Notes: generated by a model not told the origin, from the letters alone. A stretch of DNA of 64,000 nucleotides from Lophium mytilinum (GCA_010093605.1 MU004185.1:1447334-1511333); one strand, 5' to 3'; shown: positions 1 through 62,483, counted from the first letter of the stretch. A program made the numbers and translations.

Positions 1-736
1 CTACATTCGCGTTGGACTCATCACAATCTCGATCCTTTGATACACTGACTGATCAGTCATCTGGGACACGGGCACAAAAGGGCATGAGCTTCCAGTCGTC
101 CTACATAAACGCCGAGCTCGATTAGTTCTAGCCTTCCCGGTCGGATCCCGACACAACGCCCTTAATCAAATGAATGAAACACGCACGCGGTGTTTCCAAA
201 CGAAGATCACCTCGCATTCGCAACTATCTCACCTTCTCATTCGACCGTCTCTTGCCAAGCGCTATGTCAATCTTCGAACACGAAGGCGGCTGCGAAAACC
301 ACATCTTTCTCCACTTCATGAGTTTCAAAACTCACCATTCTCGACCTAACCACGCCCACATGCTTTGTCCATATGTTTGTCTGCTCTACTCATCACAAGT
401 TTAACATGGTCTAGGATGCTACCCCGAGTCGCTACCAATGTAGGACCTAGTGTGACATGAGGCTTGCGCTGACCCTGACCCTTCATCGCTACGAGATAAT
501 ATGGAAAATGCGCCTACTTAAACATGCCTTCGCTTTCCCCCACTTGCAACTCCATCTAGTAGTGAGAACGTCTTGAAGACATTTCCACTTCATTCATTCA
601 TTCCTTTTCATCTTCACGTTCATTACATGGCATAGACTGCCAACGCTCTTTTCAAGTCCACTCCCATACCTTCATTACTGTGTCAGCTCAAGACCATTGA
701 ACGCGCCATACACCGACCAAAAGCTTCATATTCATC

Positions 737-2287: not shown

Positions 2288-3623
2288 TCATAAATCATCA
2301 CAGAAGTCATACATATCCCACCTAGCCTTCCCCAGTTCCGAGCTCCTATCCGTATGCCTCGACGACCCCACCGACTCGAGATCTGACCGACCACTCCCTT
2401 CCCGCACCGCGCTTTCCGAAGACTCGCGCGCAAGTTCAGTATCCGACGCCCCGAAAGTCCCAAAACCAAACCCATCACGCGACAGCCTCCTCGTGGTCAC
2501 GATATTGCACCTCGGCGTCTCTCCAGCAGCACTGACATGCATGAAGCGGTACTGATGCCGCGAGCCCTCTTTAACAACACAAGCCAGCGGCTCCTGAACC
2601 CGCTGATCAGAGTGCAACGGACCAGACCGCCACTCCGGCAACGACACCACCGGCCTCCCCTCACTCCCCCCCGAACTCGAACGCGGCGACCCCGTAAGCA
2701 CCCACTGCATCACCGGCCGCAAACTCGGCAAACACGCCGACACCACCGCGACCGAGCACTCGCAGTTCGTCCAGATCGCGACATTCACAAACGCCCACGT
2801 GACATCGAGGTTATCCGTTGAGTCGGCCGCGAGGTACACAAGCCGTAAGATGGCGATGACGACAACGAAGCCGCCGAGCATGAAGATGGCGGTGATGGCG
2901 AGTTTCTGGGAGAGGGGCCGTTGGATGGTGAAGACGTAGGGCAGGGGGAGGCAGAGGATGGCGACGTCGGTGAGGATGTTGGGGATGGCCGAGGCGATGA
3001 AGAAGGCGTTGTAGTTTATGGTGCAGGTGACGGCGGGACCTTGGGGGGTGGACCAGAAGGAGGAGATGGGGGTGCATTGGAAGATTATAGTGAGGATCTG
3101 GGAGGGGGTTAGGTCATGTGGCTAGCTTCAGGTATGTTCGAGAGGTGTCGGAGAGAGAAGAGGAGAGCGGCTGACTTACGGTGGACAGGCCCCAGCACGC
3201 TGTGATGCCAGTGAGGATCCAGATCGGGATGCGAATCGAGGTGTATTGAAAGATGCGCCAGTAAAATGCAAGCACGGAAAATTTGACGACGCTAATAGCG
3301 GCGATGTAGGTGATCCAGCCCATGAATAAGCCCTTGAAGAACTTCTCGTAAACTCCTGGGATGGCTTCGGGTGGGAAACTGGCAACATGCCTGCCCATTC
3401 CAGCATCGGTCCAGTACTTCGTCTCGATGAGGAGGGCGGTCAAGATGGCTAAAGCTCCAAGAACAAGCCAGTCGTCCACCCAGAATGTGAACTTGACTAA
3501 TCGTCGAGCGAGGAATCGGAGAGCTACGCAGACCACAGCCAGGGCGTATGTGACGCCTACCGCGGCCCATATCTGAGGCTGCCGACTCGCTGAAAAGTCG
3601 ATATGGGAAGTATTGGACGCCAT
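2288..3623 (-). CDS. PTH11-like (rhodopsin-domain) integral membrane protein without CFEM domain, 2 exons
   Basis: Exons 3623-3180 and 3097-2288 (GTAAGT...CAG intron). Family motifs: VALRFLARR..FWVDDWL, GMGRH, KFSVLAFYWRIF, IFQCTPISSFW, NILTDVAILCLPLP, W..CECSVAVVSACLPSLRP. Confidence 0.85.
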
Positions 3624-17244: not shown

Positions 17245-20200
17245 TTAACTCCCCAACCAATTCGCCCACTGACACCCACAGCCCCCCGTGCCTCCATCAA
17301 TCCCCCCGGGGCCTCCATCCTTCGTCGCCACAGGAACATTATCAAACGGCCCACTAGCGGGATTGACGGCAACGCCACCGAAAGAGCGGTCCTCGAGCAC
17401 AAAGGCTTGCGCGTTCTTCTCGATCTTGCCGTTCGTGTCCATGCCGTAGCAGTAGATCATCTTCTTCGACAGGGCCCCGCCGTGTCGATCCAGGGTCACG
17501 GTAACAGGGTACGGGAAGGAGCCCGGGCGCTTCAGATCGGGTGACGGGCTGGCCGTTGAGGTCGGCGACGCAGACGAGGCTGTGGAAGTTGTCGGCGTTC
17601 CTTGCAGAAGCGGCTTGGTGCTGCCAGAGTTTGTCCAAATCTGGACACGGAAGCGCGTTTGAGCCCACGTGCAGCGCATGGTTGCGCTGTCGAAGGTGGA
17701 GCCGCCGTTTGTGTCGGCTGGGACACCGCCGAAGGAGTTGTTTGTTGGCTGGATGGACTTTAGGAAGATAGAGCGGTCGAAGTAGTTGTAAAAGCCGTAG
17801 TGCTCAGTAGGCAGGCCACGGTCGTAAAGCTGCAGCGGCTGCGAGCTGGGGAGAGGGAGGAGGTTAGCTGGTGCCGCAGTGCCGTCGCTGTTGACGGACG
17901 GGGGCGGAATTAGGTCGGAGAGGTTGCCGAAATTGTCGCCTCCCCGTCTGACAAGTCGTGCTGAAGACGATGCCATGGTTGGGTCAACGAAAGAAATAAA
18001 GAACGGCGTTTGTTCGCCTTCGAATGGAACCTTGTTGTCATCAGTCGTGTTTCCTAGGAACCTCTGATCGTCTAAAGAAGGCACCGCTGGCGAAGCTGTA
18101 ATGGCGCGAATCTTTAGAAGCTTTGATCTGATGAACGCTCCAGCGGAAACGGGGTTAAAAACAGCACGAGGAGCAATTTGCGTTTTGGATTTATCCGCAA
18201 TTGTCCCATTATCAAACACGATGTTCAGCTTGAAATTCGGCTGGTCCGGCTTGTTGGGAGCAACAGATGCCTGTTCCTCCTTAGGCAATGCACAACTCCA
18301 TATGGTGGCGGGGGAAACGCATCCACTTTCTTCCTCAATGGCCTCTGGCTGGGCAATAGTCGACATTCCTGTAGGCATGGGCGGATACCCAGTCAAATTC
18401 AACCACTGAGAGGCAGTGGGTATATCGTCCTTTTTGTGATGTTTCTTCGTTAACGTGACCGCAAGTGCCGTAATGATAGCCACAAGTGCAAGAAATATGA
18501 TACAGCACCAGCTGAGCCAGCAGCAGCACCGTGATCTCTTGCTCTTCTGTTGCTTCTTTTCACGTTTCTGCTCGCGTCTCTGCTCACGTCTTTGTTCACG
18601 TGCCTGCTTCTTGGAAATTCGCTGATGGTTATCGGAAGGTGCCATTTGTGGCTGTGGACTCGACCATTGAGTCTCGTGAGTCATTGAAAACTTTGGTGTT
18701 GAGTTTTGAGACGCCTGCTCACGAGACGGGGGCCCCTCAAACGTTGGAGTCCGGAATTGCGAGTTGTTTGAATAAGTAGTCGTGTGCGCCATTTGAGGCG
18801 GTGGAATTGATGTCTGCGGATGTGGGATTGATGTCTGAGGCTGTGGAATTGATGACTGAGGGCCTGGCTCACGGGACTGGAACCCCTCGAACGGTATCAT
18901 CTGGAGTGGTGGATTCGTCAAATGAGCAGGCTCAAGTGCCTTTGGAGAGGTTTGAGTAAGCGGCTCGTGGGTTTGAACCCCCTCGACCCGCCCCATCTGA
19001 GGTTGCGAATTCGACAGACGGGCAGTCTCACGCATTTGGTTCGGGAGCTCGAGGCCAAGAAGTAGTGGAACTTCCCTGTCGTTTGGACTGAAAGCTTTCT
19101 CCGTTGCCGACCATATGTACGTAGACGGTGTCGATGCCGAAACGGGGCTCGCTCCAAACCTCTGAGGCACCATAGGAACATCTGGTGTGGTATCACCGTT
19201 TCCAACCGTCCTTCTTGTCCATAGTGAATTTGAGCGTGACAGTTCAAACGGCGTGGTAATGACATTCCACCATCCACGAGAGAGCCTTGGCGTTGGTGTT
19301 AACGCCGTATCGATGCTTAAATCGAGATGACCTTTATTGGTTTTCTCTCGTGAAGAATGCGGTGTCGCATCTTCTTCGAAGAGCGTTCCTGTCGACGTGA
19401 TTCTGGCTTTGCGTCTGGTGTCCTCATCTTCCTCGAAGGCCGTGACTGCTGAATCGATGGTGCTATCGCGGACGTGGTTCGATTTCTGACTAGTCTCAAA
19501 TTCCTTATCTCGCGCAGGCTGGCTGGGGATTGCTGTGTGCCCTGATCCAACAAGATGAGATGGCACCGTTGGTACAGGTGGAACATACTGATTATTCGTG
19601 TAATCGGAAGGGAAAAAGGTCGCTTGTGAGTAAATGCTAGAAGGTGGTCGGGGCCTGTAGTCTGGCTCACTATCTGGTGACCATACTGACTTCAGCGCTG
19701 CGGGGGTGATGATGATGTTGGGAGTGACTAGCGTCACATCGCTCTCTGAGCGTTGGCGGTTTGTTCGATAGTCCTCGTGTTCTGAGAGACTGTCGGAAGG
19801 AATGGAGAGACCGATGGTGATGGGTCGATCCGCGGGTGAAACCTCCACCGATGCGAATCGTCCTGGTCGTAATGTTCCCCCTGTCTGAGGGCTAGCATAT
19901 GCTCGTTCGTCCGCTGCATCGGATGGTCTAGCGAACATGCCTCTTTGATATGTTTCCTGAGTGGGCGTAACAATGGAGGGCGGTTCTTGATCACGGTTTT
20001 GGGCTCGCATTGTCTTGTTTTTGAACCCGAATCCGTTCGCAGGGCGAGTTTTACTCGGTGAGTCTGTATTCTCGCCCTTGTCGCCCATGTTTCCCTTTGA
20101 CTTTCCAAATTGCCACCACGTACTCTTCTTGCCAGAATCATGATCCTCTGAAAAGTCCGGTAGGTTGACAAATCCAACAATGCCATTTGGCTTCAACAAA

Positions 20201-20631
20201 TCTGATGACTTCTGCGGGAAGAGTTGCCGTGGCGGCTTGGCTTTGTGCCGCGAGACGTTTGTGTCTACTGTGATGCCTGGCCTTGTAAAAGTTGCCTGCT
20301 TCGCTTTCCTCTTTGATTTGGTTCGTGCCGCTTGAGTTATCGAGGCTCGTGACTGTCGTTTCGCTGCCATGGCCTTCCTGGCGGCTACGCGTGAGGCGTC
20401 TGCGTCCCATCTCGCTTGCTCGTAAACATCATGCTGTAATAACCATGTCCCATTTGTATCATGTGCCGGTTGTTGACCATTTGCTGCTGGGTATGCAGGC
20501 GGCGGATTTTGTGTAGTATGGAGATCGTCCATCAAGAAGTCTGCGGCACCCGGAAACCTGGTTATGCGAGTCGTGGATCTCCGTAGTGGTTTTGGTGGTG
20601 ATGAGGATCCGAATGAGGTTACGTCGTTCAT
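17245..20631 (-). CDS. Large single-pass membrane protein: disordered N-terminus, Cys-rich juxtamembrane segment, conserved Cys-containing C-terminal domain
   Basis: Open frame of more than 1100 codons, first ATG at 20631. A basic stretch is followed by RCCCWLSWCCIIFLALVAIITALAV (TM). C-domain motifs: WLNLTGYPPMPTG, CV.P..WSCALP, EHYGFYNYFDRSIFL, RCTWAQTRFRVQIWT, GGIDGGTGGCGCQW.N. Confidence 0.8.
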   Translation of the reverse strand: MNDVTSFGSSSPPKPLRRSTTRITRFPGAADFLMDDLHTTQNPPPAYPAANGQQPAHDTNGTWLLQHDVYEQARWDADASRVAARKAMAAKRQSRASITQAARTKSKRKAKQATFTRPGITVDTNVSRHKAKPPRQLFPQKSSDLLKPNGIVGFVNLPDFSEDHDSGKKSTWWQFGKSKGNMGDKGENTDSPSKTRPANGFGFKNKTMRAQNRDQEPPSIVTPTQETYQRGMFARPSDAADERAYASPQTGGTLRPGRFASVEVSPADRPITIGLSIPSDSLSEHEDYRTNRQRSESDVTLVTPNIIITPAALKSVWSPDSEPDYRPRPPSSIYSQATFFPSDYTNNQYVPPVPTVPSHLVGSGHTAIPSQPARDKEFETSQKSNHVRDSTIDSAVTAFEEDEDTRRKARITSTGTLFEEDATPHSSREKTNKGHLDLSIDTALTPTPRLSRGWWNVITTPFELSRSNSLWTRRTVGNGDTTPDVPMVPQRFGASPVSASTPSTYIWSATEKAFSPNDREVPLLLGLELPNQMRETARLSNSQPQMGRVEGVQTHEPLTQTSPKALEPAHLTNPPLQMIPFEGFQSREPGPQSSIPQPQTSIPHPQTSIPPPQMAHTTTYSNNSQFRTPTFEGPPSREQASQNSTPKFSMTHETQWSSPQPQMAPSDNHQRISKKQAREQRREQRREQKREKKQQKSKRSRCCCWLSWCCIIFLALVAIITALAVTLTKKHHKKDDIPTASQWLNLTGYPPMPTGMSTIAQPEAIEEESGCVSPATIWSCALPKEEQASVAPNKPDQPNFKLNIVFDNGTIADKSKTQIAPRAVFNPVSAGAFIRSKLLKIRAITASPAVPSLDDQRFLGNTTDDNKVPFEGEQTPFFISFVDPTMASSSARLVRRGGDNFGNLSDLIPPPSVNSDGTAAPANLLPLPSSQPLQLYDRGLPTEHYGFYNYFDRSIFLKSIQPTNNSFGGVPADTNGGSTFDSATMRCTWAQTRFRVQIWTNSGSTKPLLQGTPTTSTASSASPTSTASPSPDLKRPGSFPYPVTVTLDRHGGALSKKMIYCYGMDTNGKIEKNAQAFVLEDRSFGGVAVNPASGPFDNVPVATKDGGPGGIDGGTGGCGCQWANWLGS

Positions 20632-21894
20632 GTCTTCGTAGCTATGCAATGCCTGCGGCGGCGTGCCGACCGTGGTTCGGGACGTTGCTGGTAATATAGG
20701 GTCGCAGGCGGGTGTGAAAGTAGGTTATGAAGTCGGGGGTCGGATCTCGAATTGGTCTATGAAGACGTGCAGATTGGTATTTGGTGATTTCATGAGTAAG
20801 TCATTTTCATGCGGGGCGCGAAGTGAAGCTCAGTTGGGTCTGTCACGAGGATGAAACAAAGGATGTCTGCGATGTTGGTCTATTGTTGGTGGAGGCCAGA
20901 TGAGACCTGATTGGACGGAGAGGCTGCGTTTACAATGCAGCAAAGAGGCGAGAGAACAAGAGAACAAAGACGCTTCAATGGAGGTTACAGAGGAAGTGAA
21001 AGGTGAAGAAGCCGCAGACGAAGTTGAGATGCAAAGACTTTGAGATGGCAAAGAGAAGAAGCAGCTCCACCTCCAGCGCGTTGAAACACGCGCCCCAAAC
21101 CTCTCCCGACGGTGGCCAGGCAGGCCACGCCAACCATGCCATTTCTTGCATAGAGCCTCTCCAGATCCTCCACGAATGCTCCAGCAGAGGTCGCGATTCG
21201 CCGGCGACGGACACACGTAGGCTGCGAACGGCTGGGTGGGAGCGGAGGGCAGTGACTCACGGGAATGATTGGAGCTCGTCGCGCTCTCACGGGCGCACGT
21301 CCGACTTAGCGAGCGCCATGAGCAGGGAGTCGCAGGCTCGTAGCCGCCAGGTATTCGCTGGAGGGACACACGGGAATCAATGCAGCGACGAAACGTAGTC
21401 GCGTGAGAGGGCGCTGGCTGCTGGGTTTGCTGGCGGGAGAGTAGGTGGGCGAAGCATCTGGCCAGTCGTGAGAGGGGACCAGCAGCAGCTAGACGCCGTT
21501 CATTTCCTTAGGTAAGGCGCCAAGGCACTTCTTCTCCGCCCTTGGCAGCAGGGCAGCGAGAGGGGCGAGCGGGATTCTACTGGTCTGAAGAGAGGATGGA
21601 GAGGGGCGGAGAGGGGGTGGAGGGGATGAATGAGGACAGAAGCATGTGGGAGTTGAGCTGACGAGAACCACTACTCCTCTTCGTCACATCACAGATGTGC
21701 CATCGGGCTGGCTCTCAAATCATTACTGTGCGAAACACGAGATACTCGCAAGGTACCGTCTCCATAATCGTGACTTGCAGGGGCGGGTGAGAAGTTTATC
21801 TGTTCAACAGCCGACAAATGAGCACATTGCAGCTGAAAATAGCGAAAAGGACTCCCGTCTTGCCATCTAGAGGTTGAAGCACCCACTTAGAGTT

Positions 21895-52180: not shown

Positions 52181-53046
52181 GCTCCTTCAAAAGTAGGAAG
52201 GAGTATTGTCTTGTCCGTTTGAGCGGCTTTTTGTATATACTTCACGGGCGCGCTTGTTTCTTTGGTTATTTTGATGGGCATTTGGGAGCGGGGTATGTGG
52301 TATGAGTATATCATCAGTTCGTTCTACGTGTATATAGCTTCTCATGGGTATGAGCAGTCTCAATTGAACGGTTGCTCAACTAGCTTATCCTTGTGATCTC
52401 AATTGTGGTCATGTCCGTTTCGGAGCTCGGCACTCCCGAGGGTGTCGTAGGACTTGCAAACGAGTGAAGCGCTTACGATAGAGAGTAGTCAAGAGAAGAT
52501 TTGACCAAGGAGAGCGAAGATAGGAAACTAAACAGTCGACGAGGTGCTGTCTCATTTCCACGGTTGTTAAGTGCAATGAGAGAGTGAGAGCATGGCCACG
52601 TATAAGTAAGTGTACGAGTCATAAGCAGCATACGAGATAACCAAAGAACAAAACGTACCGGCTCTCCCTGGGTGGCGCAAGATCCCCCGTGCCGCAAGGA
52701 GAAGAATTTTTAGGCATCTCGCTCTCTCCCTTGCAATTCAAATAAGTTGTAATTAGTCTATTGTCATTCTTTGGACATCTCTCACTACGAAGCCAGTGCG
52801 CAGCTTAAAAAACCCTTCTTGATTATGCCGTTACCTATTCCATGTAGAGCATCTGGAGTGGCATTAGCTTCACACGCCTTGCTGTTCTTTAATCCGTATC
52901 AGATTAAATTGGTGTTGCGGAAGCTAGTAAGCTATGCTGTCATCTAGTCTTTCTTACCCAGTTATCTACCCGCGCGTTGTTATTCTCGTCCGTGTCCAGT
53001 AAATAAACAGCGCTAGAGCCGCTTACTGGCCTCGTCACTACTGCGC

Positions 53047-53988
53047 CTACCAACGCAAGTCCTTGAAATCCAGATTCTTGATGACTCCCGCAGCAGCAAA
53101 ACTCCTGTTGTCTGCAGTGACATTCGAAATATCTTGATTGATCCTCAATTCTTCTCCAGAAGTATTGATGAAACCCGCCAGAGCCGAACTATTCTGCGAT
53201 GCCTTGATACCCTTGATCTTCTGCCCTGTACGTTCATACACCATTTGTGACAGTGCTTCCTCGCACATGTCTCGCAAGACAGCTTTAGCAGCTTGTTGTC
53301 TCTCAATCTCTCGGAGAAGCTCTTGTTTGCTTCGCTCTGATTCGTCATCCGGCTCGGTGTTTCCACCAAGAGCGAGTTGTTCTCGACTTTGCTCAAGTTC
53401 CACCATTTCATTGTCTGCTCTAGTGAGCTCTTGCCGAAGACTGGCTTCATTTGCTCTCAGTATGCTGTCCTTCTGTTCTTTCGATAGGTCGTTTTGGTTG
53501 GTTGCTACTAGACTGCTTTTTGGTCAGCTATTGGCAGGCTAAACTTTCACCCAGAGTGAAACATACAGAGCCGCTGTGGACAGTGCGACACTGAGAGTGC
53601 TTTTGCAGTCGCTGAGCTGCCCTTTGAACGTCTTGATCCTCTCTGGCCCAAACAGCCCAATCTTCCATCGAGATATCCAGAATATCTTGTCCTTTTTGGA
53701 ATGCTTCATCCAGCTCTCGATTTGCAACTGAAATGCTTTGCATGCTCTGTCACAATTCTCGACAGCAGGCCCAATTTGGTTACTCTGGATGACTTGTAGG
53801 GAGTCGCCTTGTATTGCCACATTCAGATCCTGCAACACAGACTCAACTGCCCTGAGGTCGGCACTAATATCTCTGACAGTACCTGCGGCGCCTCTAATAT
53901 TGTCGATGGTCTTGGCGAGGAACTGAGTGCCTTGGAGAGCGGTAGTTGTAACTGCTATTACAGAGGCGGTAACACTGAGAGGGTCCAT
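53047..53988 (-). CDS. HeLo-like (HELL/SesA-type) putative cell-death effector with C-terminal two-repeat amyloid motif, 2 exons, 295 aa
   Basis: Exons 53988-53567 and 53512-53047. N-terminus MDPLSVTASVIAVTTTALQG...I..I..A...V..I..DL..V..VL, then V.NC..AC..F and L..CKSTLSVAL, typical of fungal HeLo-like N-terminal domains. C-terminal pseudo-repeats QKIKGIKASQNSSALAGFIN and QDISNVTADNRSFAAAGVIK. Confidence 0.85.
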
Positions 53989-54292
53989 TGCAATAAGGAG
54001 ATCACTTAAGAAAAGTTGAAGGTAAAGACCAAAGTAAGGAAAATATGGCTGTCCAAATAGGCAACGAGCTGATATTTGGGGGCTGTGCTTTGGCTGAGGC
54101 GAAGCTGAGGGGTTGTGGGCAGCCACTCATTGCGTGTGTCTTGGCGCGGCCTCGAGGCTGAGATTTTGCGTATGAACGTTGTCGCTCCAGCCTGACGATG
54201 CAATTGAGCATCTCTTATACACCTCGTGAAGATCACTGCGTTGCAGTAAGATTCCTCCGCGGAGCATTGCGTCGCACCGGGCCCTTGTCGCG

Positions 54293-57200
54293 ATGGCTAG
54301 CAGCTCTTTGCCCGACCACCTCGCTATCCACAACACGTCCGCAACAGAAGGCAGTCAGACCTTTGCTGGAATCAACCTTGGTACCATAGCTTATGCTCCC
54401 AGCGAGACCCCACTACGTAAGAACTTTAGCTCCAAAATCTTTTGTACTAACAGATTAATTGAAAGTATAGAACTCAACGATTTACTTCAGAAGACCCTAC
54501 CCGTTTCTGTCGACGCGTCGTTCAGCGCACGCAAGCGGGAGCGCGAACCAAAATGTCTCGCGGGAACCCGTACCGATCTCCTTAACGACATATACAATTG
54601 GGTGGATGGTGGCTCACAGAGCATCTTCTGGCTTTGTGGTCTGGCCGGCACGGGCAAGTCTACAATAGCTCAGACTGTGGCCGCCACCTACTCTACACAG
54701 AACACCCTCGGAGCTAGCTTCTTCTTCTCGCGGGGCGGCGGTGATGTTGGACATGCTGAAAGATTTGTTACAACCGTTGCATTTCAGCTTGCAAACATCA
54801 TACCGGGTCTGAAGCGCCAAGTCTGGGACGCTGTATCAGAGCGCAGCGATATCGCCACCCAGTCTCTCCGCGATCAGTGGCAGGACCTCGTACTCGGTCC
54901 TTTGTCTAACATTCCGATTGGAAAAGACTGCAAATCGAGATATGTCCTTGTCATTGATGCTCTCGATGAGTGTGAAGATCAGAGTGACATTCAGATCATT
55001 CTACAACTTCTAGCTGAAGTTCGGTCGCTAAAGGTTGTCCGGTTACGGGTGCTAGTGACGAGCAGACCTGACATTTCGGTCCGATACCCCCTTAACCAAA
55101 TAAACAGAGATGAGCACCAGGACTTTGCACTTCATGACATTGAGCGGTCGATTGTGGATCATGACATCACTATTTTTCTGAGAGTCAACCTCGGACGTAT
55201 CAGACAGAATAATGAGCTCCAGGCTGACTGGCCGGAGGAGAGTGCGATTTCAGCTTTAGTCCGGAGCTCCAATGGACTATTCATCTGGGCCGCGACAGCC
55301 TGTCGATTCATCGAACAAGACGGCCGGCTTGCACGGGACCGTTTATCTCTACTCTTACAAGAACCCAACAACACGACTGAACCAGCACGCAAGCTTGACG
55401 AAATATACACCACCGTTCTGACCAACACTGTCCGAGGAGAATATGACGAAGAAGAAACTCTGCGGTTGCGCGACCTATTTCGTCAGGTTGTTGGACCAAT
55501 CATCGTTTCTCCAGAGCCTCTATCCGTGTCAAGCCTTGTCGGTTTACTTGGAAAAGATGCCGAGGGTTTTAGACCAACTTTATCCAACTTGCATTCTGTT
55601 CTCCATGTGCCAGAGGCCGAGTCGACTACCGTTCAGTTGCTCCACCCATCATTCCGCGACTTTCTCCTTAGTAGGAAGCGATGCTCGAATCCTCAATTTT
55701 TCATTGACGAGAAATTGGTCCATCACGACATGTACAAGAACTGTCTTCGAGTCATGTCACGACACTTACGGCGCGACATTTGCAGCCTAGGACGTCCAGG
55801 AGCCGACAAAACTAGCCTGAGCAGAGGTGAAGTGGACGCACATATTCAACCACATGTTCAGTATGCATGCCGGTTCTGGGTTCATCATTACATACGAAGC
55901 GATGTAGACACTGAAGACCATAACAAGCTTGAAAGCTTCTTCCGAATACACTTTCTACATTGGCTTGAAGCGCTAGCACTATTAGGATGTGCCTCTGACG
56001 CTGTAGGCATGATTCATATGCTGAATTCCGGATTCTCAGTAAGAAACTTTAGTTCCACAATACCCCTTAATTAGCTAACCTATCAGGGCAAGCGAGAGAA
56101 GCTACTTCGGATACCAACCAGAATTCGTGGCAAGCTTAAATCGATGTTTGCATTCAGCGATGCACCTACAATCGATACAAATCCGGAAGATCCCAAGAAT
56201 GTAGCACAGCCAAAATTACAGGCGCTGATACATGATGCGGTACGATTTATTCTCACGTTCCGACCCGTCATGGACGTGGCACCGCTTCAAGTGTATTGCG
56301 CTGGTCTGGTTTTCAGCCCAACTGCGAGCATCATCAAGAAGAATTTCTCAAATGAATTTCCCGCCTGGCTTCCGCGCACGCCTATGGTGTCAGAAAACTG
56401 GACTCCCTGTTTGCAGACGCTCAGGAGACTTACTCGCTTCAACCATATGGCATTCTATGTCGCCTGCTCGCCGGACGGCAAGACGCTGGCGTCAGCGTGG
56501 GATAGCAAGACATTCAAGCTGTGGGACGCTGGCTCGGGAAAGGCGCTTCTAACGCTTGAACACGATTCGCGTTATGTTCATGACGCGACCTTCTCGCCGG
56601 ACAGCAAGACGCTGGCGACCATAGGGGACAAGACGGTTAGGCTGTGGGACACCGGTTCGGGGAAGGCGCTCCTAACGCTTGAACACGATTCAGATAAGTC
56701 TCATGTCGCGACATTCTCGCCGGACAGCAAGACGCTGGCGTTGACAGACAACAAGACGGTCAAGCTATGGGACATTAGCTCGGGGAAGGCGCTGCTAACG
56801 CTTAAAGGCTATTTAAATTTGATTTCAGCTTTAACCTTCTCGCCGGACGGCAAGACGATAGCGTCGGCATCAAAAGGAACGGTCACGGTGTGGGACACCC
56901 GCTCCGGGAAGGCACTGCAGACGTGCAACCACGCTCACTGGGTCCGCGCCATAACCTTCTCGCCGGATGGCAAGACGATGGCGTCAGCAGAAGACACGGA
57001 AATAGTCGAGTTATGGGATATTAGCTTAGGGAAGACGCTGCGGTCGCTCAACGGCTTTTATGGAGTAGCCTTCTCGCCGAATAGCAAGACGATAGCGTTG
57101 AGATCAATGGACGAGACAATTGAGCTGCGGGACGTCGGTTCAGGAAAGACGCTGTCAACACTCAAAGGCCATTCGGAAGTCGTCTGTGCCGTGGCCTTTT

Positions 57201-58216
57201 CGCCGGATGGTCAGACGCTGGCATCGGCATCGGATGACAAGACAGTCAAGCTATGGGAAGCTGGCTCAGGAAAGGTGCTGCAAACATTCAAAGGCCATCT
57301 GCGTGCACTCAAGACCGTGGCCTTCTCACCAGATGGCGAGACGCTAGTATCGGCGTCAAATGACAACACAGTCAAGGTATGGGACGCTGGCTTCAGGGAG
57401 GGACTGCGAACTATCAAAGCCCATTCGGGTCCGGTCAGGGCCGTGGCTTTTTCTCTGGATAATAAGATGGTGGCGACGGCGGCATCGGATGATAAGACAA
57501 TTAAGCTATGGGATACCACCGGCTCGGGGAAGGCGCTGCAGACACTTAAAGGCCATTCTGGTCTGGTCAGGGGCGTGGCCTTTTCACCGGATAACAAGAT
57601 GCTAGCGTCGGCATCGGATGATAAGACGGTCAAGCTGTGGGACGCCACCGGCTCGGGGCAGGCGCCACGGACGCTCAAGGGCGATTGGGGTATGGTTAGG
57701 GCCGTGGCCTTCTCGTCGGATGGTAAGACGCTGGCATCGGCATCTGTTGGGACAGTTGCACTGTGGGGTACCGGTCCGTGGAAGGCGCTGCAGCAGCTTA
57801 GAACAGATGAAATCCTTATCGAGCACGTGGCCTTGGCCTTCTCACCGGACGGCAAGACGCTGGCGTGGGCAATGGGCAGGACAGTCAGACTGTGGGACAT
57901 CGTTTCAAAGACGGTGCTGCGGGAATTTGAAGCTAGTTACGATCTGCAAAGTCTTTCGTTCCTTGATACAGGTTTCTCTCTTTTGACAGATAGAGAAGTG
58001 CTACTTCTCTCAGATGCTCCTGATGAAAACGAAGTCATTCATCAACCAGCTCCTCCGCAATCAATGTCTGTACATGAAGATTGGACGTATTCTAATGGTG
58101 AAAGAATTCTTTGGCTTCCTTCCGAATATCGCCCTCAGTTCGTCGCTATTCATGGTAGTATTGTTGTATTTGGGTACTCTTCTGGTCAAGTGTTAATTGC
58201 AAACTTTGTCTTCTGA
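54293..58216 (+). CDS. Fungal NLR (STAND), NACHT-WD40 (NWD) type, with short N-terminal amyloid motif and no effector domain, about 1273 aa
   Basis: Exons 54293-54416, 54471-56038 and 56087-58216. CLAGTR..LL..I..W, Walker A GLAGTGKST, LGASFFFSR, Walker B LVIDALDEC, LVTSRP, GLFIWAATACRFI, LLHPSFRDFL, YACRFW..H, FLHWLEAL.LLG, APLQVY, then a WD40 array. Confidence 0.92.
56460..57990 (+). repeat. WD40 repeat array of about 126-bp units (12 clear plus 1 degenerate) in the NLR
   Basis: Recurring (F)SPD(G/S/N)KTLAS...DKTVKLWD.GSGKAL.TL.(G)H. At DNA level ttctcgccggac.gcaagacgctggcg recurs. Confidence 0.9.
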
Positions 58217-58961
58217 TATTACTTAACCTGTCCGTCCACAAACATGTAAATAATGTTTCTTTAGACTCTTAGCGTATGTAGTGATAGCCTAGAAATCATG
58301 CATGATTATATCTCTGGAGACTTTCAAAGCAAAGCACAAATTAATGGGCCTTTTAAGAAATAGGGTTCTAAGATTTATCTGATACATCACGTACACGGTC
58401 TACGGTTCCTTGTTCCGTAATATTTTGCGTGTAATAGCAGCTCTAAGGCGAACAACAGCTTCCTATTATAGTAGTAAGGTTCTCAGGCGTAAATAGGGCC
58501 CTTTTGTAGGGACAAGAAGTAGTAAAGGGTCAAAATAGTGCTGAATGAAAGAAATCATATGACGCTGTAGAGACGAGGCTCTCCGCAGATTAGGCGCGAT
58601 AACTTAACTGTGATTTTCTTGGAGGAGCTATTCTAAGTACTTAGAAGTAGCTATAGTACACCTCTGATATAGGACTATTAAGAATATTAATATATAATAG
58701 AAATTAAGATGTTTAAAGTTAATATACGCCTTATATTTTACGGTGACCGTACAGTGGGTTTTGCGCCACCTAGGTACGGACGTTAGGACATACGATACTC
58801 CAACCATGAGGGTATTTTTGCTAACGGAAAAGATAACATAAAGATAGTAAACCTGAGCAGCATCTCAAACCTACCTCGCTATATAAAACCGCTAAAAGAG
58901 AAGAGGCAGTGAACGCCTGCTACCAGCCTACCCTTAACATTGAAAGGCACTTACTCGCCTC

Positions 58962-59936
58962 TTATACAAAAGTCACTTTGACCGGCCTGCCATCATTCTC
59001 ACTTCGCCGTCGTTTTACCGGTGATCCACTTCGACTTCTTACCCGTGACCCACCTCGACGCGTCCGCTTCACCACACCCTTCGGAGACAAACTTCTCCTC
59101 CTCTCGACAACCCGCGTTGGAAACCTCTTACTCATGCAATTCTTACTCCAACACCGACACCCATACCCAGCCTGCTTAAAATACCCCTCCCCATAATCCG
59201 CCGTAACCTCCGCACCAGCCTCAATCGTCCTCGTCGCCTCTATCACCATCGCAATCTGCTTCCCGACCCTAAAGTACTCATAATGCGTGTTAGCATCACA
59301 GTTATGGTTGATAAACCGCGTCCAATTCCCCTTACTCTCCGCGTCAATCATCGCCTTTGGCCACGTCATATCATGCCGATTTTTCGCGCGCTTCGATGCT
59401 CGCTTTCCAATCGGGATATTCAGGCAATACGCCAGCGACTTCTGCTCATCAGGCACCGGGATCACGCGCCCGGTGTACGCACCCAGTATCTGGCCCCTCT
59501 TCCACTTCGTTTTGGTGAAGGCGGCCACGCCTAGCGGTGTGTCGCGGAGTTCGAAGCGCGATGTCCAGTCGAGGCCGCCGGATAGCCACTCTTGGAACTT
59601 GTGGCCGCAGTTGAGGTTGCCGCGGCCTGCGGAGCACATGTTGTCGTCCCATAGGGATCGGCCGAGACAGTGCAGGTCTTTGCCGTTGTCAGCGGCTAGG
59701 AGCGTTACGAGGCTCTTCGGGGGCCACTTGCCTGCGGGCCAGCCTGCGGGCGGTTCGGCTTTGGGTGGCCATGGTGCTTTTTTCCACTCTGTTTTGGCGA
59801 ACTCGAGGCCGTCGAAGCGGCGGGGTGTGATGGTTGTTCCGTTGGAGGGGGCGTTGCGGACGGTGGCTTTGGTTCCGGCGGATTTTTCGACCCAGTATTC
59901 GAATGTGTCGTTTCTGAGGCCGCCGCGTGCTGGCAT
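58962..59936 (-). CDS. SET-domain lysine methyltransferase-like protein, paralog A, intronless, 324 aa
   Basis: FELRDTPLGVAAFT, ILGAYTGRV, IDAESKGNWTRFINHNCDAN, I.ATRTIEAGAEVTADYG..YF, post-SET CRCWSKNC, Arg/Ser-rich basic tail. Confidence 0.88.
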   Translation of the reverse strand: MPARGGLRNDTFEYWVEKSAGTKATVRNAPSNGTTITPRRFDGLEFAKTEWKKAPWPPKAEPPAGWPAGKWPPKSLVTLLAADNGKDLHCLGRSLWDDNMCSAGRGNLNCGHKFQEWLSGGLDWTSRFELRDTPLGVAAFTKTKWKRGQILGAYTGRVIPVPDEQKSLAYCLNIPIGKRASKRAKNRHDMTWPKAMIDAESKGNWTRFINHNCDANTHYEYFRVGKQIAMVIEATRTIEAGAEVTADYGEGYFKQAGYGCRCWSKNCMSKRFPTRVVERRRSLSPKGVVKRTRRGGSRVRSRSGSPVKRRRSENDGRPVKVTFV

Positions 59937-60559
59937 TGTGAGTTAGGTTGGAGCGAAGATGCCACTTACACTTGATTGTTCTTGAAAGCTTTCTGGGATC
60001 TGAGGTATGCGAGAATTCAGGGAGCTTTGCAGTTCAGCATGATTCCGAAGGATGATTGTATCATTGACCACCGATCTGTAAGGCGAGAACAATGGTCTTT
60101 GTCGAGAGTCAGCCATCAAGAGGAGTTCTTGCTGGACATTGACATTTGACAACAGAACAAAGCGAAGTAGGACAATAGAACAAGGGAGTACTACCAAGAA
60201 CAAAGAAAACATTCGATACCTGGTCGTCCAGGAAAAGCAACAGTAAAGCGCCGGAGTTGTGATAGAGAAGTCAGGGTAACCAAAAAAGGCAAGAGGCGCC
60301 GAAAAGCTAAGCATATTGTAGTGAGTCTAGCAGGCTGTGGAAATGTGAAGACAGTATTGATATGATGCACAAATTTCTAATCGGCGAAGTTGAAGATGAC
60401 TTTCAACGCATCATACCGAATAAGACTCCACCTTGTCCCGTTATAGCAGAGACTCAAACGATCTAAATACCTAGCGGAGGAAGATTTCATACTGAATGAA
60501 TATTAGGTTATCTCAGGTATCGAGTGTAACATATTTATCTCATAGCTTACCTTCAGATC

Positions 60560-61516
60560 TCACCGCCGCCGTCGCGTAGCCGCCTTAGCTACCCTGGATA
60601 CTGCCTTAGCTGCTTTCGCATCTGCGGCGGCCTTGATTACCTTATGCTTTGCTCTATCTTTGCAGTCTTTATGGCCGCAAAGACAAAGGGTCCCCATAGC
60701 GTCGAGGTATTCCTTGCCGTATGCCACAGTAATTTCAGCCCCTACTGGTATCCTTTTCTTAGCTTGGACTACCATTACAAGGTGGTTGCCCACCCTTCTA
60801 GGCACAAACTTAGCGTTCGAATTACAGGAATGATTGGCAAAACGAGTCCAGTTCCCGAACCACTCCGCATCAATATCGGCCTTAGGCCAAGCAGCACTAT
60901 GCCGTACTTGCAACCTTGGGGGCTTCGGACCGATTGCCATTTTCACAATATATTTTGATCCACCGTCCGCTCTGGTAGCAGCCTCACGATCGGAAAATTG
61001 TGGCGGAACAACTGTGCCGGTGTAGCATCCGAGTATATCGTTATTTTCCCAGCGCACTTTGGTCCAGACTCCGATACCTGCTATGGGTGATTCCCTTAAT
61101 TCAAACCGAGACTCCCAATCTATGCCGCCTTGTATCCATTCCCAGAAGGTGTGACGGCAATTCTGGACATCTCCGCAGTCTATCCGCTGCCAGAGTAACG
61201 GGCCAATGCACAGGGGCCGGCTGGGATCACCTTCTGGCGTATCAGCTACGAGAAGATCCGCTACAGTGTTGGGGGGCCATGTTGAGGTTGCACCTGGTGG
61301 GGTTACCGGCCAATTGGTTGGTCTGTTGGCCCTCCATTCTGCTTTCTTAAATCTATAGTAATCCATCTGTGCAGGTGCTTTGGTTGTGGCAGCTTTCTTT
61401 TTGGTTGTCGCACCTTTCTTTTTGGTTGTTTTGACTACCTTCGCAGTTGGAGTGACCGGAAAAGAAGCCTTGGGGTCGTCACCCTTGTGCCATATGACCC
61501 TATTGCCACTCGACAT
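60560..61516 (-). CDS. SET-domain lysine methyltransferase-like protein, paralog B, intronless, 318 aa
   Basis: FELRESPIAGIGVWT, ILGCYTGTV, IDAEWFGNWTRFANHSCNSN, V.AKKRIPVGAEITVAYGKEY, post-SET CLCGHKDC, Lys/Ala-rich ends. Confidence 0.88.
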   Translation of the reverse strand: MSSGNRVIWHKGDDPKASFPVTPTAKVVKTTKKKGATTKKKAATTKAPAQMDYYRFKKAEWRANRPTNWPVTPPGATSTWPPNTVADLLVADTPEGDPSRPLCIGPLLWQRIDCGDVQNCRHTFWEWIQGGIDWESRFELRESPIAGIGVWTKVRWENNDILGCYTGTVVPPQFSDREAATRADGGSKYIVKMAIGPKPPRLQVRHSAAWPKADIDAEWFGNWTRFANHSCNSNAKFVPRRVGNHLVMVVQAKKRIPVGAEITVAYGKEYLDAMGTLCLCGHKDCKDRAKHKVIKAAADAKAAKAVSRVAKAATRRRR

Positions 61517-62483
61517 TGTGGTGTGTTTGATTTTTTTCTAGGCCAGATCGGTGGTGATAATAATGATGGTCGAAAATAAGGACTCCAAGTCAGACTTCGA
61601 AGGGGAATTGTACCGTTCATCAGCGATGAAGTGAGGAGTATATACGGAGTACTATTCTCTTTGTCCTGGCCAACAATGGATTCTTGCCAGACTTGAAAGA
61701 GACCCGACGCCTGACAATAAAACAAAGCGAGACATGACCACGGAACAATAAGAAGGCGGCCAAGGAGAAAAATCTCGTAGACGCCTCGCTTTTGCTGCCA
61801 ATAATAGCATTGAGAGGTGTCAAAGTTGCGGCGGAGAGGGTGGGTTATACCAGCCGTTTCTCATAGCCAAAACCCTGAGATCTGTCAAGCTCCGCTACAC
61901 GGAGAAGCTCATAATAGCATGTCGTGCGCGAAGATAGTTCCTTGTGTAAGCAATATTTGGTAACTAGTTTGTCGCGGAGGGTTGATTTCTGATGGAGACA
62001 TGATATTGAAGGCCCAACGCGAGCGAGGAAAGGCCTCATCCTGTCGTTCAGAACGCGCTCTTTTGTGATGGCCATGAAGGATGCTATTCAGCACTACGTT
62101 AGCAGTAAGGCTGCACATAGTTCGTGATGGTGGTGTGCCAGGAGTAGGTAGGACTTCCTGGTCGTTGATTTTGGATGAAAGGTGGTCAAAGCTTGACCCA
62201 CCTTTGCCGCAAGGGATTCTTCCTCCTGAGGTCTTCGTTGGGTCGATCAATCCTTTGCCCCTCTGCGCAATAGGCAACATATAAATGCTACTCTCAAAAG
62301 TGGGAGGTTCAGTTATCCAACGCTGTGGGCTTAGCTTTATGTAAAGCAAATTTAAGATACTCTCTCTACTGCTTTCGCCTGCTCTATTCTAAGCTGACTA
62401 TCTCACACCTGGAGGCGATACGTGCAGAGTCTGCTACTCTTACTGTCTACGTTGATTGTTTTTAGTCCTGCAGGAATGTCAAT

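What the first reader, a model, noticed from the sequence alone, without database searches (positions are those of the whole stretch)
53047..58216. Head-to-head HELL effector and NACHT-WD40 NLR share a gap-free amyloid motif: a candidate prion-like immune signalling module
Seen in sequence: the two ATGs (53988 and 54293) are 304 bp apart and divergent. The NLR has no N-terminal effector domain, only about 40 aa before the NACHT region. Its residues 10-28 (54320-54376; R0 LAIHNTSATEGSQTFAGIN) align without gaps to two repeats at the effector C-terminus: R1 QKIKGIKASQNSSALAGFI (from 53223) and R2 QDISNVTADNRSFAAAGVI (from 53136). All three share I3, A8, S12, A16-G17 and a hydrophobic residue 18, and position 5 is N, G, N. 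Established: in Podospora, the NLR NWD2 carries one R0 copy that templates the two-repeat beta-solenoid prion-forming domain of the adjacent HET-S, releasing its membrane-disrupting HeLo domain; HET-s-related amyloid motif (HRAM) families also occur with HeLo-like domains. Inference: this locus is an intact two-gene receptor/executioner pair of that class. I cannot tell whether the motif is a catalogued HRAM subfamily or a new one.
Basis: partly seen in the sequence, partly recalled or inferred. Interest (0 to 1): 0.9.

Follow-up and report, generated by a model that had tools for sequence, protein, structure and literature searches.

The report
Fungal NLR and pore-former amyloid pair
Two back-to-back fungal genes encode an immune-type receptor and a membrane-damaging cell-death protein that share a short amyloid-forming motif; it is a clean, expressed example of a signalling system already described in many fungi, not a new kind.

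Summary
Two divergent, intact, spliced and transcribed genes lie 304 bp apart. One encodes a 295-aa HeLo-like (PF17111) protein ending in two 21-aa pseudo-repeats. The other encodes a 1273-aa NACHT-WD40 NLR with one related motif at residues 8-28. The effector matches a Lophium mytilinum protein at 100% identity.

The repeats fit the HET-s-related amyloid motif (HRAM) pattern of Daskalov 2015: G at position 19, hydrophobic residues at 5/8/10/16/18, an 8-aa loop and an aromatic tail. Q at position 3 with A at 16 and 18 points to subfamily HRAM2. The closest solved relative is the HELLF prion fibril (6EKA, HRAM5; profile E=0.0057).

Homologous effectors carry the same repeats in 33 of 33 comparable homologues. 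In four other species the effector and an NLR have consecutive accession numbers.

The main caveat is that R0 resembles R1/R2 only weakly in the window itself. An R1/R2 HMM does not detect it, and a shuffle test gives 20 of 2000. The match is convincing only at family level, where R1 and R2 are the top two of 66 offsets (2 of 5000 shuffles). Amyloid templating and cell death are inferred, not shown.

Verdict: a new member of a known kind, of modest interest.

The parts
53047..53512 (-). Effector exon 2 (includes the stop codon): coiled-coil linker plus the C-terminal prion-forming region
   Evidence: The RNA contig joint skips 53513-53566. The frame was checked. The product is the 295-aa protein, 100% identical to database protein P0001.
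53567..53988 (-). Effector exon 1: HeLo-like (HELL) domain, residues 1-140, with a hydrophobic N-terminal helix
   Evidence: PF17111 E=1.4e-24 over residues 1-139; SesA PF17107 just under its cut-off. AlphaFold2 gives a helical bundle, pLDDT 79.
53513..53566 (-). Effector intron, 54 nt, GT..AG on the minus strand
   Evidence: Skipped in RNA contig X1.
53167..53229 (-). R1, 21-aa pseudo-repeat T236-I256 (TGQKIKGIKASQNSSALAGFI): Q3, I5, I8, A10, A16, A18, G19
   Evidence: Domain i-E 9.9e-12 against an R1/R2 HMM built without the window's protein. The repeat is conserved in 34 of 34 homologues. Predicted strands at 239-241 and 250-257.
53080..53142 (-). R2, 21-aa pseudo-repeat I265-I285 (INQDISNVTADNRSFAAAGVI), 8 aa after R1, followed by the aromatic tail KNLDFKDLRW
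   Evidence: Domain i-E 1.5e-11. Predicted strands at 268-270 and 279-286, each 29 residues after its R1 counterpart.
53989..54292 (.). 304-bp divergent intergenic region, presumably a shared promoter and 5' UTRs
   Evidence: Read from the sequence. Covered without a gap by the RNA contig, which cannot show where transcripts start.
54293..54416 (+). NLR exon 1 (residues 1-41 plus one base)
   Evidence: 54293 is the first ATG after an in-frame stop. Orthologues begin with the same MASG.LPH sequence. The exon is spliced to exon 2 in the RNA contig.
54314..54376 (+). R0, a single 21-aa motif D8-N28 (DHLAIHNTSATEGSQTFAGIN). Conservation continues to Y34 (base 54394).
   Evidence: 15 invariant columns in 6 full-length or near-full NLR N-termini. 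The R0 profile finds 29 representatives at E<=1e-3. In the offset scan it aligns in register with R1 and R2.
54417..54470 (+). NLR intron 1, 54 nt, GT..AG
   Evidence: RNA contig joint.
54471..56038 (+). NLR exon 2: NACHT NTPase module. Walker A GLAGTGKS lies at 54638-54661; Walker B is VLVIDALDE.
   Evidence: NPHP3_N E=9.7e-32 and NACHT E=4.8e-07. Motifs located.
56039..56086 (+). NLR intron 2, 48 nt, GT..AG
   Evidence: RNA contig joint.
56087..58216 (+). NLR exon 3: about 13 WD40 repeats (roughly 56384-57898) and a C-terminal tail, including the stop codon
   Evidence: WD40 PF00400 E=1.1e-93 with 11 stretches. Units of 38-43 aa. DNA tandem arrays of period 123-126 at 72-80% matches.

Best explanation
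This is a two-gene NLR/executioner module of the HET-s-related amyloid motif (HRAM) class, most likely subfamily HRAM2, in a Dothideomycete. The effector is 100% identical to a Lophium mytilinum protein.

Proposed mechanism, by analogy with NWD2/HET-S and FNT1/HELLF:
1. An unknown ligand binds the WD40 repeats.
2. The NACHT domains oligomerise, which brings the N-terminal R0 segments together.
3. The R0 segments fold into a beta-solenoid-like amyloid nucleus.
4. This nucleus templates the R1-loop-R2 region of the neighbouring HeLo-like protein into a two-rung beta-solenoid.
5. That frees the protein's N-terminal hydrophobic helix to attack the plasma membrane and kill the cell.

Shown here: the gene structures and their transcription; the domain identities; the repeat architecture and its conservation; recurrence of the gene neighbourhood in other species; the family-level in-register similarity of R0 to R1 and R2; and sequence homology of the C-terminus to the solved HELLF fibril.

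Inferred: amyloid formation, templating by R0, membrane attack and cell death.
For: - **Domains.** PF17111 E=1.4e-24 on the effector; NPHP3_N/NACHT and WD40 on the NLR. PF17111 is the HeLo-like family (PMC9815663, passage).
- **Gene models and expression.** One RNA contig has all three introns removed and covers 52810-58289.
- **Repeat rules.** These were read in Results sections of PMC4518210. G19 is present in R1 in 34 of 34 homologues and in R2 in 33 of 33. Q3 is present in 33 of 34 and 34 of 34. The loop is 8 aa in 32 of 33 and 7 aa in 1 of 33. An aromatic C-terminal tail follows R2. Position 4 carries opposite charges, K in R1 and D in R2.
- **R0 composition.** R0 has no K or R and contains H, S and T, as that paper describes for r0 motifs.
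- **Family-level register.** The R0 profile's two best scores out of 66 offsets fall on R1 and R2; 2 of 5000 column shuffles reach that sum.
- **Neighbourhood.** Effector and NLR have consecutive GenBank accessions on one contig in Alternaria tenuissima, Aaosphaeria arxii, A. arborescens and Sarcosagium campestre. In Leptodophora they are two apart. All 5 pairs examined are listed here.
- **NLR relatives.** 8 of the 120 listed NACHT homologues carry an R0. These sit at ranks 3, 4, 5, 8, 9, 13, 17 and 29.
- **Predicted structure.** AlphaFold2 on the C-terminus alone gives strands 14-16/19-21/26-33 and 43-45/48-50/55-62, a constant offset of 29, with core pLDDT 75-88.
- **Solved relatives.** The C-terminal profile hits 6EKA (HELLF fibril) at E=0.0057 across both repeats. 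Foldseek's top three of 350,542 chains are 2RNM, 6EKA and 2MUS.
Against: - The window's own R0 is not detected by the R1/R2 HMM: it is not listed at E<=10 among 123 N-termini, nor at E<=50 in the six-frame scan.
- Orthologous R0s of the same type score only E 0.5-5.5 with that HMM.
- R0 is identical to R1 at 5 of 19 positions and to R2 at 6 of 19. The best single ungapped match is reached by 176 of 2000 shuffles.
- The Foldseek E-values for the fibril hits are 1.9-4.2, which is not significant.
- Position 15 is S in R1 and F in R2, not the R/K that the paper reports as preferred.
- Pfam HET-s_218-289 gives no hit at E<=1. The paper reports the same for 117 of its 155 HRAM proteins.
- Co-variation between R0 and R1/R2 across pairs could not be tested: only 3 pairs with the window's R0 type are known here.
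- There is no experimental evidence of amyloid formation or cell death for this pair. Neither the one full-text search for the term HRAM2 nor the passages read (homology models only) turned up any for an HRAM2 member.
Confidence: 0.82

Rival explanations
1. The two genes are a conserved, co-regulated pair, but this R0 type ('LPHxLxIHGTSATxGGQxFAGINLGTINY') does not itself template this effector's repeats. The effector would be triggered by another NLR carrying the R1-like R0 type ('TQLISGVxAxxxSQxxxG'), or the NLR would signal to another partner.
For: The R1/R2 HMM detects the R1-like R0 type at E 0.0012-0.013 in 3 of its 4 carriers (the fourth at 0.23), but not the window's type (E 0.5-5.5; the window is not listed). 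In Sarcosagium the NLR next to the same kind of effector carries the R1-like type. The HELLF/HET-s work shows that near-identical backbones can still fail to cross-seed (preprint 10.1101/2020.07.06.188508, passages).
Against: The window's R0 type sits next to the same effector family in the window, in A. tenuissima and in Aaosphaeria arxii. The family-level offset scan places it in register on both R1 and R2. Some members of this R0 family have Q3, I5, G7, A10 and T11, exactly as R1 does.
Confidence: 0.1
2. The resemblance of R0 to R1/R2 is chance. The NLR N-terminus would be a conserved non-amyloid segment, such as a regulatory or localisation peptide, and the neighbourhood would reflect only a shared promoter.
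For: Pairwise identity is low at 5-6 of 19. The single-best-match shuffle test gives 176 of 2000. The HMM does not detect R0.
Against: The two best of 66 offsets are R1 and R2, reached by 2 of 5000 shuffles. The two-repeat in-register shuffle test gives 20 of 2000. The neighbourhood recurs in at least 4 other species spanning two classes. R0's position, length, G19 and hydrophobic pattern fit the published r0 description.
Confidence: 0.05

Closest known systems
[quoted passage not shown]
   Same: - HeLo-like effector under 310 aa with two 21-aa repeats.
- Q at position 3, G at 19, hydrophobic residues at 5/8/10/16/18, and no Q at 16 or 18.
- An adjacent NLR with a single r0.
- Species that the paper lists with HRAM2 also yield close homologues of this effector: Aspergillus fumigatus (HRAM2 only), Cadophora and Aaosphaeria arxii.
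- The family-level R0 profile scores higher on R1 than on R2 (15.9 against 11.7), the trend the paper reports for HRAM2.
   Different: - Position 15 is S/F rather than the preferred R/K.
- The assignment rests on features stated in the text and on species overlap. The logos (figures) and the sequence file S1 (.xls) could not be read.
- The window's species was not found in the files of the 2022 survey that were searched (3 of 10 files were not searched).
HELLF/FNT1 of Podospora anserina (HRAM5; fibril structure 6EKA)
   Same: - HeLo-like domain plus a two-repeat prion-forming region.
- An adjacent NLR with an N-terminal motif.
- The profile of the window's C-terminal family aligns to 6EKA over both repeats at E=0.0057, sharing RTGQK at the start of R1.
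- Foldseek TM 0.60 (normalised to the target), rmsd 3.6 A over 53 columns.
   Different: - The HRAM5 hallmarks QxFG and QG(QI) are absent; the window has QKIK/QDIS and AGFI/AGVI.
- The review and the preprint name FNT1 only as an NLR; my recollection, from no call, is that it is an NB-ARC/TPR NLR. The window's NLR is NACHT-WD40.
NWD2/HET-S of Podospora anserina (HRAM1, Pfam PF11558)
   Same: A NACHT-WD40 NLR with r0 at its extreme N-terminus, next to a pore-forming protein with a two-rung beta-solenoid region. It is the mechanistic paradigm for this class (abstract and introduction of PMC4518210).
   Different: - The effector domain is HeLo-like (PF17111), not HeLo.
- Position 3 is Q, not N.
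- PF11558 is not hit at E<=1.

Membership tests
HRAM NLR/effector amyloid-signalling pair (PMC4518210) | Effector has an N-terminal HeLo, HeLo-like or SesA domain and is shorter than about 310 aa | tested here: met
   PF17111 E=1.4e-24; the protein is 295 aa.
HRAM NLR/effector amyloid-signalling pair (PMC4518210) | Two C-terminal 21-aa pseudo-repeats with G at position 19 and hydrophobic residues (or T) at 5, 8, 10, 16 and 18 | tested here: met
   R1 has I5 I8 A10 A16 A18 G19. R2 has I5 V8 A10 A16 A18 G19. G19 is conserved in 34 of 34 and 33 of 33 homologues.
HRAM NLR/effector amyloid-signalling pair (PMC4518210) | Loop of 6-18 aa between the repeats, and a short aromatic segment after R2 | tested here: met
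   The loop is 8 aa (NTSGEELR) and the tail is KNLDFKDLRW.
HRAM NLR/effector amyloid-signalling pair (PMC4518210) | Preference for R/K at position 15 | tested here: not met
   S in R1 and F in R2. Homologues have S, I or F there. The paper states this as a preference, not a rule.
HRAM NLR/effector amyloid-signalling pair (PMC4518210) | Adjacent gene encodes an NLR with a single motif copy at its very N-terminus and no other effector domain | tested here: met
   The divergent neighbour lies 304 bp away. R0 is at residues 8-28 and the NACHT region starts at about residue 74.
HRAM NLR/effector amyloid-signalling pair (PMC4518210) | r0 resembles the cognate r1/r2 | tested here: inconclusive
   The window alone gives 5-6 identities of 19, no HMM hit and 20 of 2000 shuffles. 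The family profiles give R1 and R2 as the top two of 66 offsets, reached by 2 of 5000 shuffles.
HRAM NLR/effector amyloid-signalling pair (PMC4518210) | Homology to a solved HRAM fibril | tested here: met
   The C-terminal profile hits 6EKA (HELLF) at E=0.0057 and 19.9 bits, aligned over both repeats.
HRAM NLR/effector amyloid-signalling pair (PMC4518210) | Two-rung beta-solenoid fold of the R1-loop-R2 region | tested here: inconclusive
   AlphaFold2 gives two in-register three-strand rungs. Foldseek's top three hits are 2RNM, 6EKA and 2MUS, but at E 1.9-4.2. This is a prediction only.
HRAM NLR/effector amyloid-signalling pair (PMC4518210) | Prion or amyloid behaviour, seeding by r0, and membrane-targeted cell death | not testable with these tools
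   Needs experiments.
HRAM2 subfamily | Q at position 3; no Q at position 16 or 18 | tested here: met
   Q3 is present in both repeats, with A16 and A18. The rule was read.
HRAM2 subfamily | Clusters with the published HRAM2 repeats (File S1 and logos of PMC4518210) | not testable with these tools
   The supplement (.xls and .pdf) and the figures are not readable here. There is indirect support only: A. fumigatus, Cadophora and Aaosphaeria arxii are listed with HRAM2 and hold close homologues.
HRAM5 subfamily (HELLF) | QxFG at the start of the repeat and QG(QI) at the arc | tested here: not met
   The window has QKIK/QDIS and AGFI/AGVI. The hallmarks were read.
HRAM1 / Pfam HET-s_218-289 (PF11558) | Pfam model match; N at position 3 | tested here: not met
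   There is no PF11558 hit at E<=1 on effector exon 2. Position 3 is Q.
PP and sigma amyloid signalling motifs | PP core NxGxQxGxN; sigma Pfam models (NACHT_sigma, Ses_B) | tested here: not met
   By direct reading, no NxGxQxGxN occurs in R0, R1 or R2 (pattern). No sigma-related Pfam family is listed at E<=1 for NLR exon 1 or 2 or for effector exon 2.

The most novel reading that the evidence does not exclude
One executioner family may be served by two distinct R0 'dialects'. One is R1-like ('TQLISGVxA...SQ...G'). The other is divergent and longer ('LPHxLxIHGTSATxGGQxFAGINLGTINY'); the R1/R2 profile cannot recognise it, and it carries an extra conserved NLGTINY segment. If the divergent dialect still seeds the same two-repeat region, this pair would be a natural case of amyloid templating across a large sequence gap. 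It would then be a handle on the rules that set cross-seeding barriers, in the experimentally uncharacterised HRAM2 group.
Probability: 0.15. Interest if true: 0.5.

Novelty: new member of a known kind. Interest (0 to 1): 0.3.

Why it matters
The locus adds a well-supported instance of fungal amyloid-based NLR signalling in the order Mytilinidiales. Both genes are intact and their introns are confirmed by RNA.

Public annotation does not show this. The effector is labelled 'hypothetical' or 'azaphilone pigment cluster protein L N-terminal domain'.

The one search for the term HRAM2 turned up no experimental study of an HRAM2 member, and the passages read mention only homology models. A compact pair with known exon structure is therefore a usable construct source for testing whether HRAM2 forms a HET-s-like solenoid, and how far R0 can diverge from R1/R2 and still seed them.

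It opens no new question.

Tried and rejected
- **Own genome:** none is held for this window, so other carriers of the motif in the same genome could not be sought.
- **Complex prediction:** NLR 1-41 against effector 225-295 gave no verdict (score 0.01; controls were not run; the alignments were not used).
- **Foldseek, whole effector model:** no match at E<=0.001.
- **VIA-align wide search:** only generic helical matches at Z 9-11. MLKL (4btf_A) came at rank 18 with Z 9.8, rmsd 2.3 over 99 residues, inside the noise band the tool gives for helical bundles. This is not used as evidence.
- **Word-based search with NLR exon 1:** only 2 hits among 9 candidates.
- **Supplements:** those of PMC4518210 are unreadable. 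In PMC9815663, the species name gave no occurrence (3 of 10 files not searched) and motif strings gave none (2 of 10 files not searched).
- **Full-text search for motif strings:** none of the 15 listed of 23 papers holds a motif string; all 15 hits are for the species name alone.
- **RNA holders:** one run is listed, and its kind is only guessed as RNA. I treat it as RNA because its contig lacks three canonical introns.
- **Earlier findings of this scan:** nothing relevant.
- **Third motif-bearing gene in the window** (as in the PP and sigma clusters): rejected. Apart from R1 and R2, the best six-frame hit is E=0.074 over 12 residues at 61155-61355.
- **Timed-out script:** the first permutation script timed out and was rerun.

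Full report
**1. What is there**

The window is fungal. Effector exon 2 is 100% identical to an NCBI protein named 'hypothetical protein BU16DRAFT_615678 [Lophium mytilinum]' (P0001, 295 aa).

Two genes diverge from a 304-bp spacer. I derived intron positions from reading-frame tests and then checked them against a public run. One 5324-nt contig of run X1 lies on 52810-58289 with no mismatches and skips three stretches:
- 53513-53566 (CT..AC on the plus strand, that is GT..AG on the minus strand);
- 54417-54470 (GT..AG);
- 56039-56086 (GT..AG).

The tool only guesses that this run is RNA. Three canonical introns removed from one contig is what spliced RNA looks like. The contig shows that both genes are transcribed and spliced, and that the R0-coding exon is joined in frame to the NACHT exon. 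A contig cannot show where transcripts start.

The resulting gene models are:
- Effector: 53988..53567 plus 53512..53047, 295 aa.
- NLR: 54293..54416, 54471..56038 and 56087..58216, 1273 aa.

**2. Domains**

- Effector residues 1-139 match PF17111 at E=1.4e-24. Pfam now names this family PigL_N. It is the HeLo-like family of the fungal NLR literature (PMC9815663, passage).
- NLR exon 2 matches NPHP3_N (E=9.7e-32) and NACHT. Walker A (GLAGTGKS) and Walker B (VLVIDALDE) are intact.
- Exon 3 holds about 13 WD40 units of 38-43 aa. At DNA level they form tandem arrays of period 123-126 with 72-80% matches.
- Nothing in Pfam matches NLR residues 1-41. Effector exon 2 matches nothing at or above a curated cut-off (weak sub-threshold rows only), and HET-s_218-289 is not among them at E<=1.

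**3.

The alignment is exactly as stated (see the observation check).

In the 21-residue numbering of Daskalov et al. 2015 (G at position 19; Results read):
- R1 is T236-I256, TGQKIKGIKASQNSSALAGFI.
- R2 is I265-I285, INQDISNVTADNRSFAAAGVI.
- R0 is D8-N28, DHLAIHNTSATEGSQTFAGIN.

R1 and R2 have hydrophobic residues at 5, 8, 10, 16 and 18, G at 19 and Q at 3. They are 8 residues apart and are followed by the aromatic tail KNLDFKDLRW. Position 4 is K in R1 and D in R2, a complementary charge pair of the kind the paper reports for in-register stacking. R0 has no K or R and is rich in H, S and T, as the paper describes for r0 motifs.

**4. Conservation of the effector**

A word-based search with exon 2 returned 34 proteins of 283-332 aa. 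By the organism names, which I assigned to fungal classes from my own knowledge, they come from Dothideomycetes, Leotiomycetes, Eurotiomycetes and Lecanoromycetes.
- All 34 carry R1.
- 33 carry R2. P0021 diverges after R1, and I left it out of the R2 counts and of alignments A2 and A3.
- Q3 is present in 33 of 34 R1 and 34 of 34 R2 repeats.
- G19 is present in 34 of 34 and 33 of 33.
- The loop is 8 aa in 32 of 33 and 7 aa in 1 of 33.

An HMM of 65 such repeats, built without the window's protein, finds the window's R1 and R2 at domain i-E 9.9e-12 and 1.5e-11. It finds nothing else in the six frames of the window better than E=0.074.

**5. Conservation of R0, and its relation to R1/R2**

Among the 120 best NACHT relatives listed of 2230, eight carry an N-terminal motif.
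- Four have the window's type (P0038, P0039, P0042, P0043).
- Four have an R1-like type, 'TQLISGVxA...SQ...G' (P0037, P0047, P0051, P0063).
- They rank 3, 4, 5, 8, 9, 13, 17 and 29.
- Of the other 112, 27 begin with a HET domain, 7 with a PNP_UDP-like start, and 78 with other or unclear starts.

A profile of six N-termini of the window's type was searched against 1.84 billion representatives. It found 29 proteins at E<=1e-3. Most are short exon-1 fragments.

I aligned 34 R0 sequences: the window, 5 NLRs and 28 of the 29 hits. P0184 was dropped because its match lies at residues 826-846 of a 1040-aa protein that does not look like an NLR.

Evidence against a close relation of R0 to R1/R2:
- The R1/R2 HMM scores the R1-like type at E 0.0012-0.23.
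- It scores the window's type at only E 0.48-5.5.
- It does not list the window's own N-terminus at E<=10 (123 targets; reversed and non-N-terminal controls gave no hit at E<=0.01).

Evidence for a relation:
- The 21 core columns of the R0 profile were slid without gaps over the 86-column effector C-terminal profile.
- Column-shuffled cores reach the maximum in 22 of 5000 trials and the top-two sum in 2 of 5000.
- Several members of the R0 family (for example P0170 and P0183) have Q3, I5, G7, A10 and T11 as R1 does, which bridges the two R0 types.

**6. Neighbourhood elsewhere**

I looked up five effector/NLR pairs from other species.
- Four have consecutive GenBank accessions on the same contig: A. 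tenuissima (RYO00276/RYO00277, on a 10,055-nt contig), Aaosphaeria arxii (KAF2016553/KAF2016554), A. arborescens (RYN21505/RYN21506) and Sarcosagium campestre (KAI9807904/KAI9807905).
- The Leptodophora pair is two apart, and by its Pfam list that NLR has a HET domain.
- A. tenuissima and Aaosphaeria carry the window's R0 type.
- Sarcosagium carries the R1-like type.
- The A. arborescens model starts without any R0.

**7. Fold**

- AlphaFold2 on the 33-sequence alignment (mean pLDDT 79.2) gives a helical N-terminal domain and long helices up to residue 236. Strands follow at 239-241 and 250-257, and again at 268-270 and 279-286.
- The C-terminal 71 aa folded alone (mean pLDDT 73.6) give strands 14-16/19-21/26-33 and 43-45/48-50/55-62. 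The offset is a constant 29 residues, which equals the repeat spacing. This is the layout expected of a two-rung solenoid.
- Foldseek's three best of 350,542 chains are the HET-s fibril 2RNM, the HELLF fibril 6EKA (TM 0.60 by target, rmsd 3.6 A, 53 columns) and the HET-s fibril 2MUS. Their E-values are 1.9-4.2.
- By sequence, the C-terminal profile hits 6EKA at E=0.0057 over both repeats.

**8. Which family**

Daskalov et al. state that position 3 is N in HRAM1, Q in HRAM2 and H in HRAM3. They also state that HRAM4 and HRAM5 carry Q at 18 and 16.
- The window has Q3, A16 and A18, which fits HRAM2.
- HELLF is called HRAM5, with hallmarks QxFG and QG(QI) (preprint 10.1101/2020.07.06.188508, passages). 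The window lacks both.
- The paper's Table 1 lists A. fumigatus with two HRAM2 proteins and no other HRAM. It also lists Cadophora and Aaosphaeria arxii with HRAM2. My search found two A. fumigatus clusters, several Cadophora proteins and one A. arxii protein with this C-terminus.
- I could not see the logos or File S1, so the HRAM2 label is a strong inference and not a direct clustering result.
- The position-15 R/K preference is not met.

**9. Mechanism and verdict**

The best reading is the published one for this class. The ligand-activated NACHT-WD40 oligomer nucleates an R0 amyloid. That amyloid templates R1/R2 of the neighbouring HeLo-like protein, which then permeabilises the membrane. 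The paradigms are NWD2/HET-S (abstract and introduction of PMC4518210) and HELLF/FNT1.

Everything up to the sequence and predicted-fold level is shown here. Templating and killing are inferred.

The pair is a new member of a known kind. The one feature worth a specialist's attention is that the same effector family is paired with two rather different R0 types. The window's type is too divergent from R1/R2 for a profile HMM to see.

Noticed in passing
Alignment A2 columns 143-161 (homologues P0002-P0005, P0008, P0009, P0014, P0017, P0026, P0033): Ten database models of homologous effectors carry an 18-20-aa insertion exactly where the window's 54-nt intron lies. These are probably unspliced-intron annotation errors, since RNA in the window shows the intron is removed.
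   Followed up: partly
P0169 (79 aa, hit): One representative carries two tandem copies of the NLR-type R0 motif ('...ASATDGSQNLSGINYGT...' and '...GTSTMGGAQGFSGINYGTLNYG'). That is unusual for the receptor side, which normally has a single copy.
   Followed up: no
P0040 (Alternaria arborescens NLR): This NLR is encoded next to a homologous effector, but its annotated N-terminus lacks any R0. The first exon has probably been missed in the public gene model.
   Followed up: no
window 53124-53126 (R2 position 7) and 54332-54334 (R0 position 7): The window's R2 has N at position 7, where 32 of 33 homologues have D. The window's R0 and its closest R0 relatives also have N7. This may be a co-varying Asn pair, but no partner data were available to test it.
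   Followed up: partly
window 58962-59942 (-) and 60560-61537 (-): Two tandem SET-domain ORFs (PF00856, E=6e-17 and 7e-14) lie just downstream of the NLR.
   Followed up: no
window 56463-56918 and 57129-57744: The WD40 repeats form DNA-level tandem arrays (period 123-126, 72-80% matches). Such arrays are common in fungal NLRs that diversify by repeat shuffling.
   Followed up: partly
window 54198-54389 (+): A 63-codon upstream ORF in another frame starts 95 nt before the NLR ATG and overlaps it. It lies inside the RNA-covered region. It could be a uORF if the NLR transcript starts upstream of it.
   Followed up: no
window 701-2056 (+), 2288-3121 (-), 17245-20724 (-): Elsewhere in the window there is an AA14 lytic polysaccharide monooxygenase ORF (E=1e-84), a fungal rhodopsin-domain ORF, and an 1159-aa ORF with no Pfam match at E<=1e-5.
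   Followed up: no
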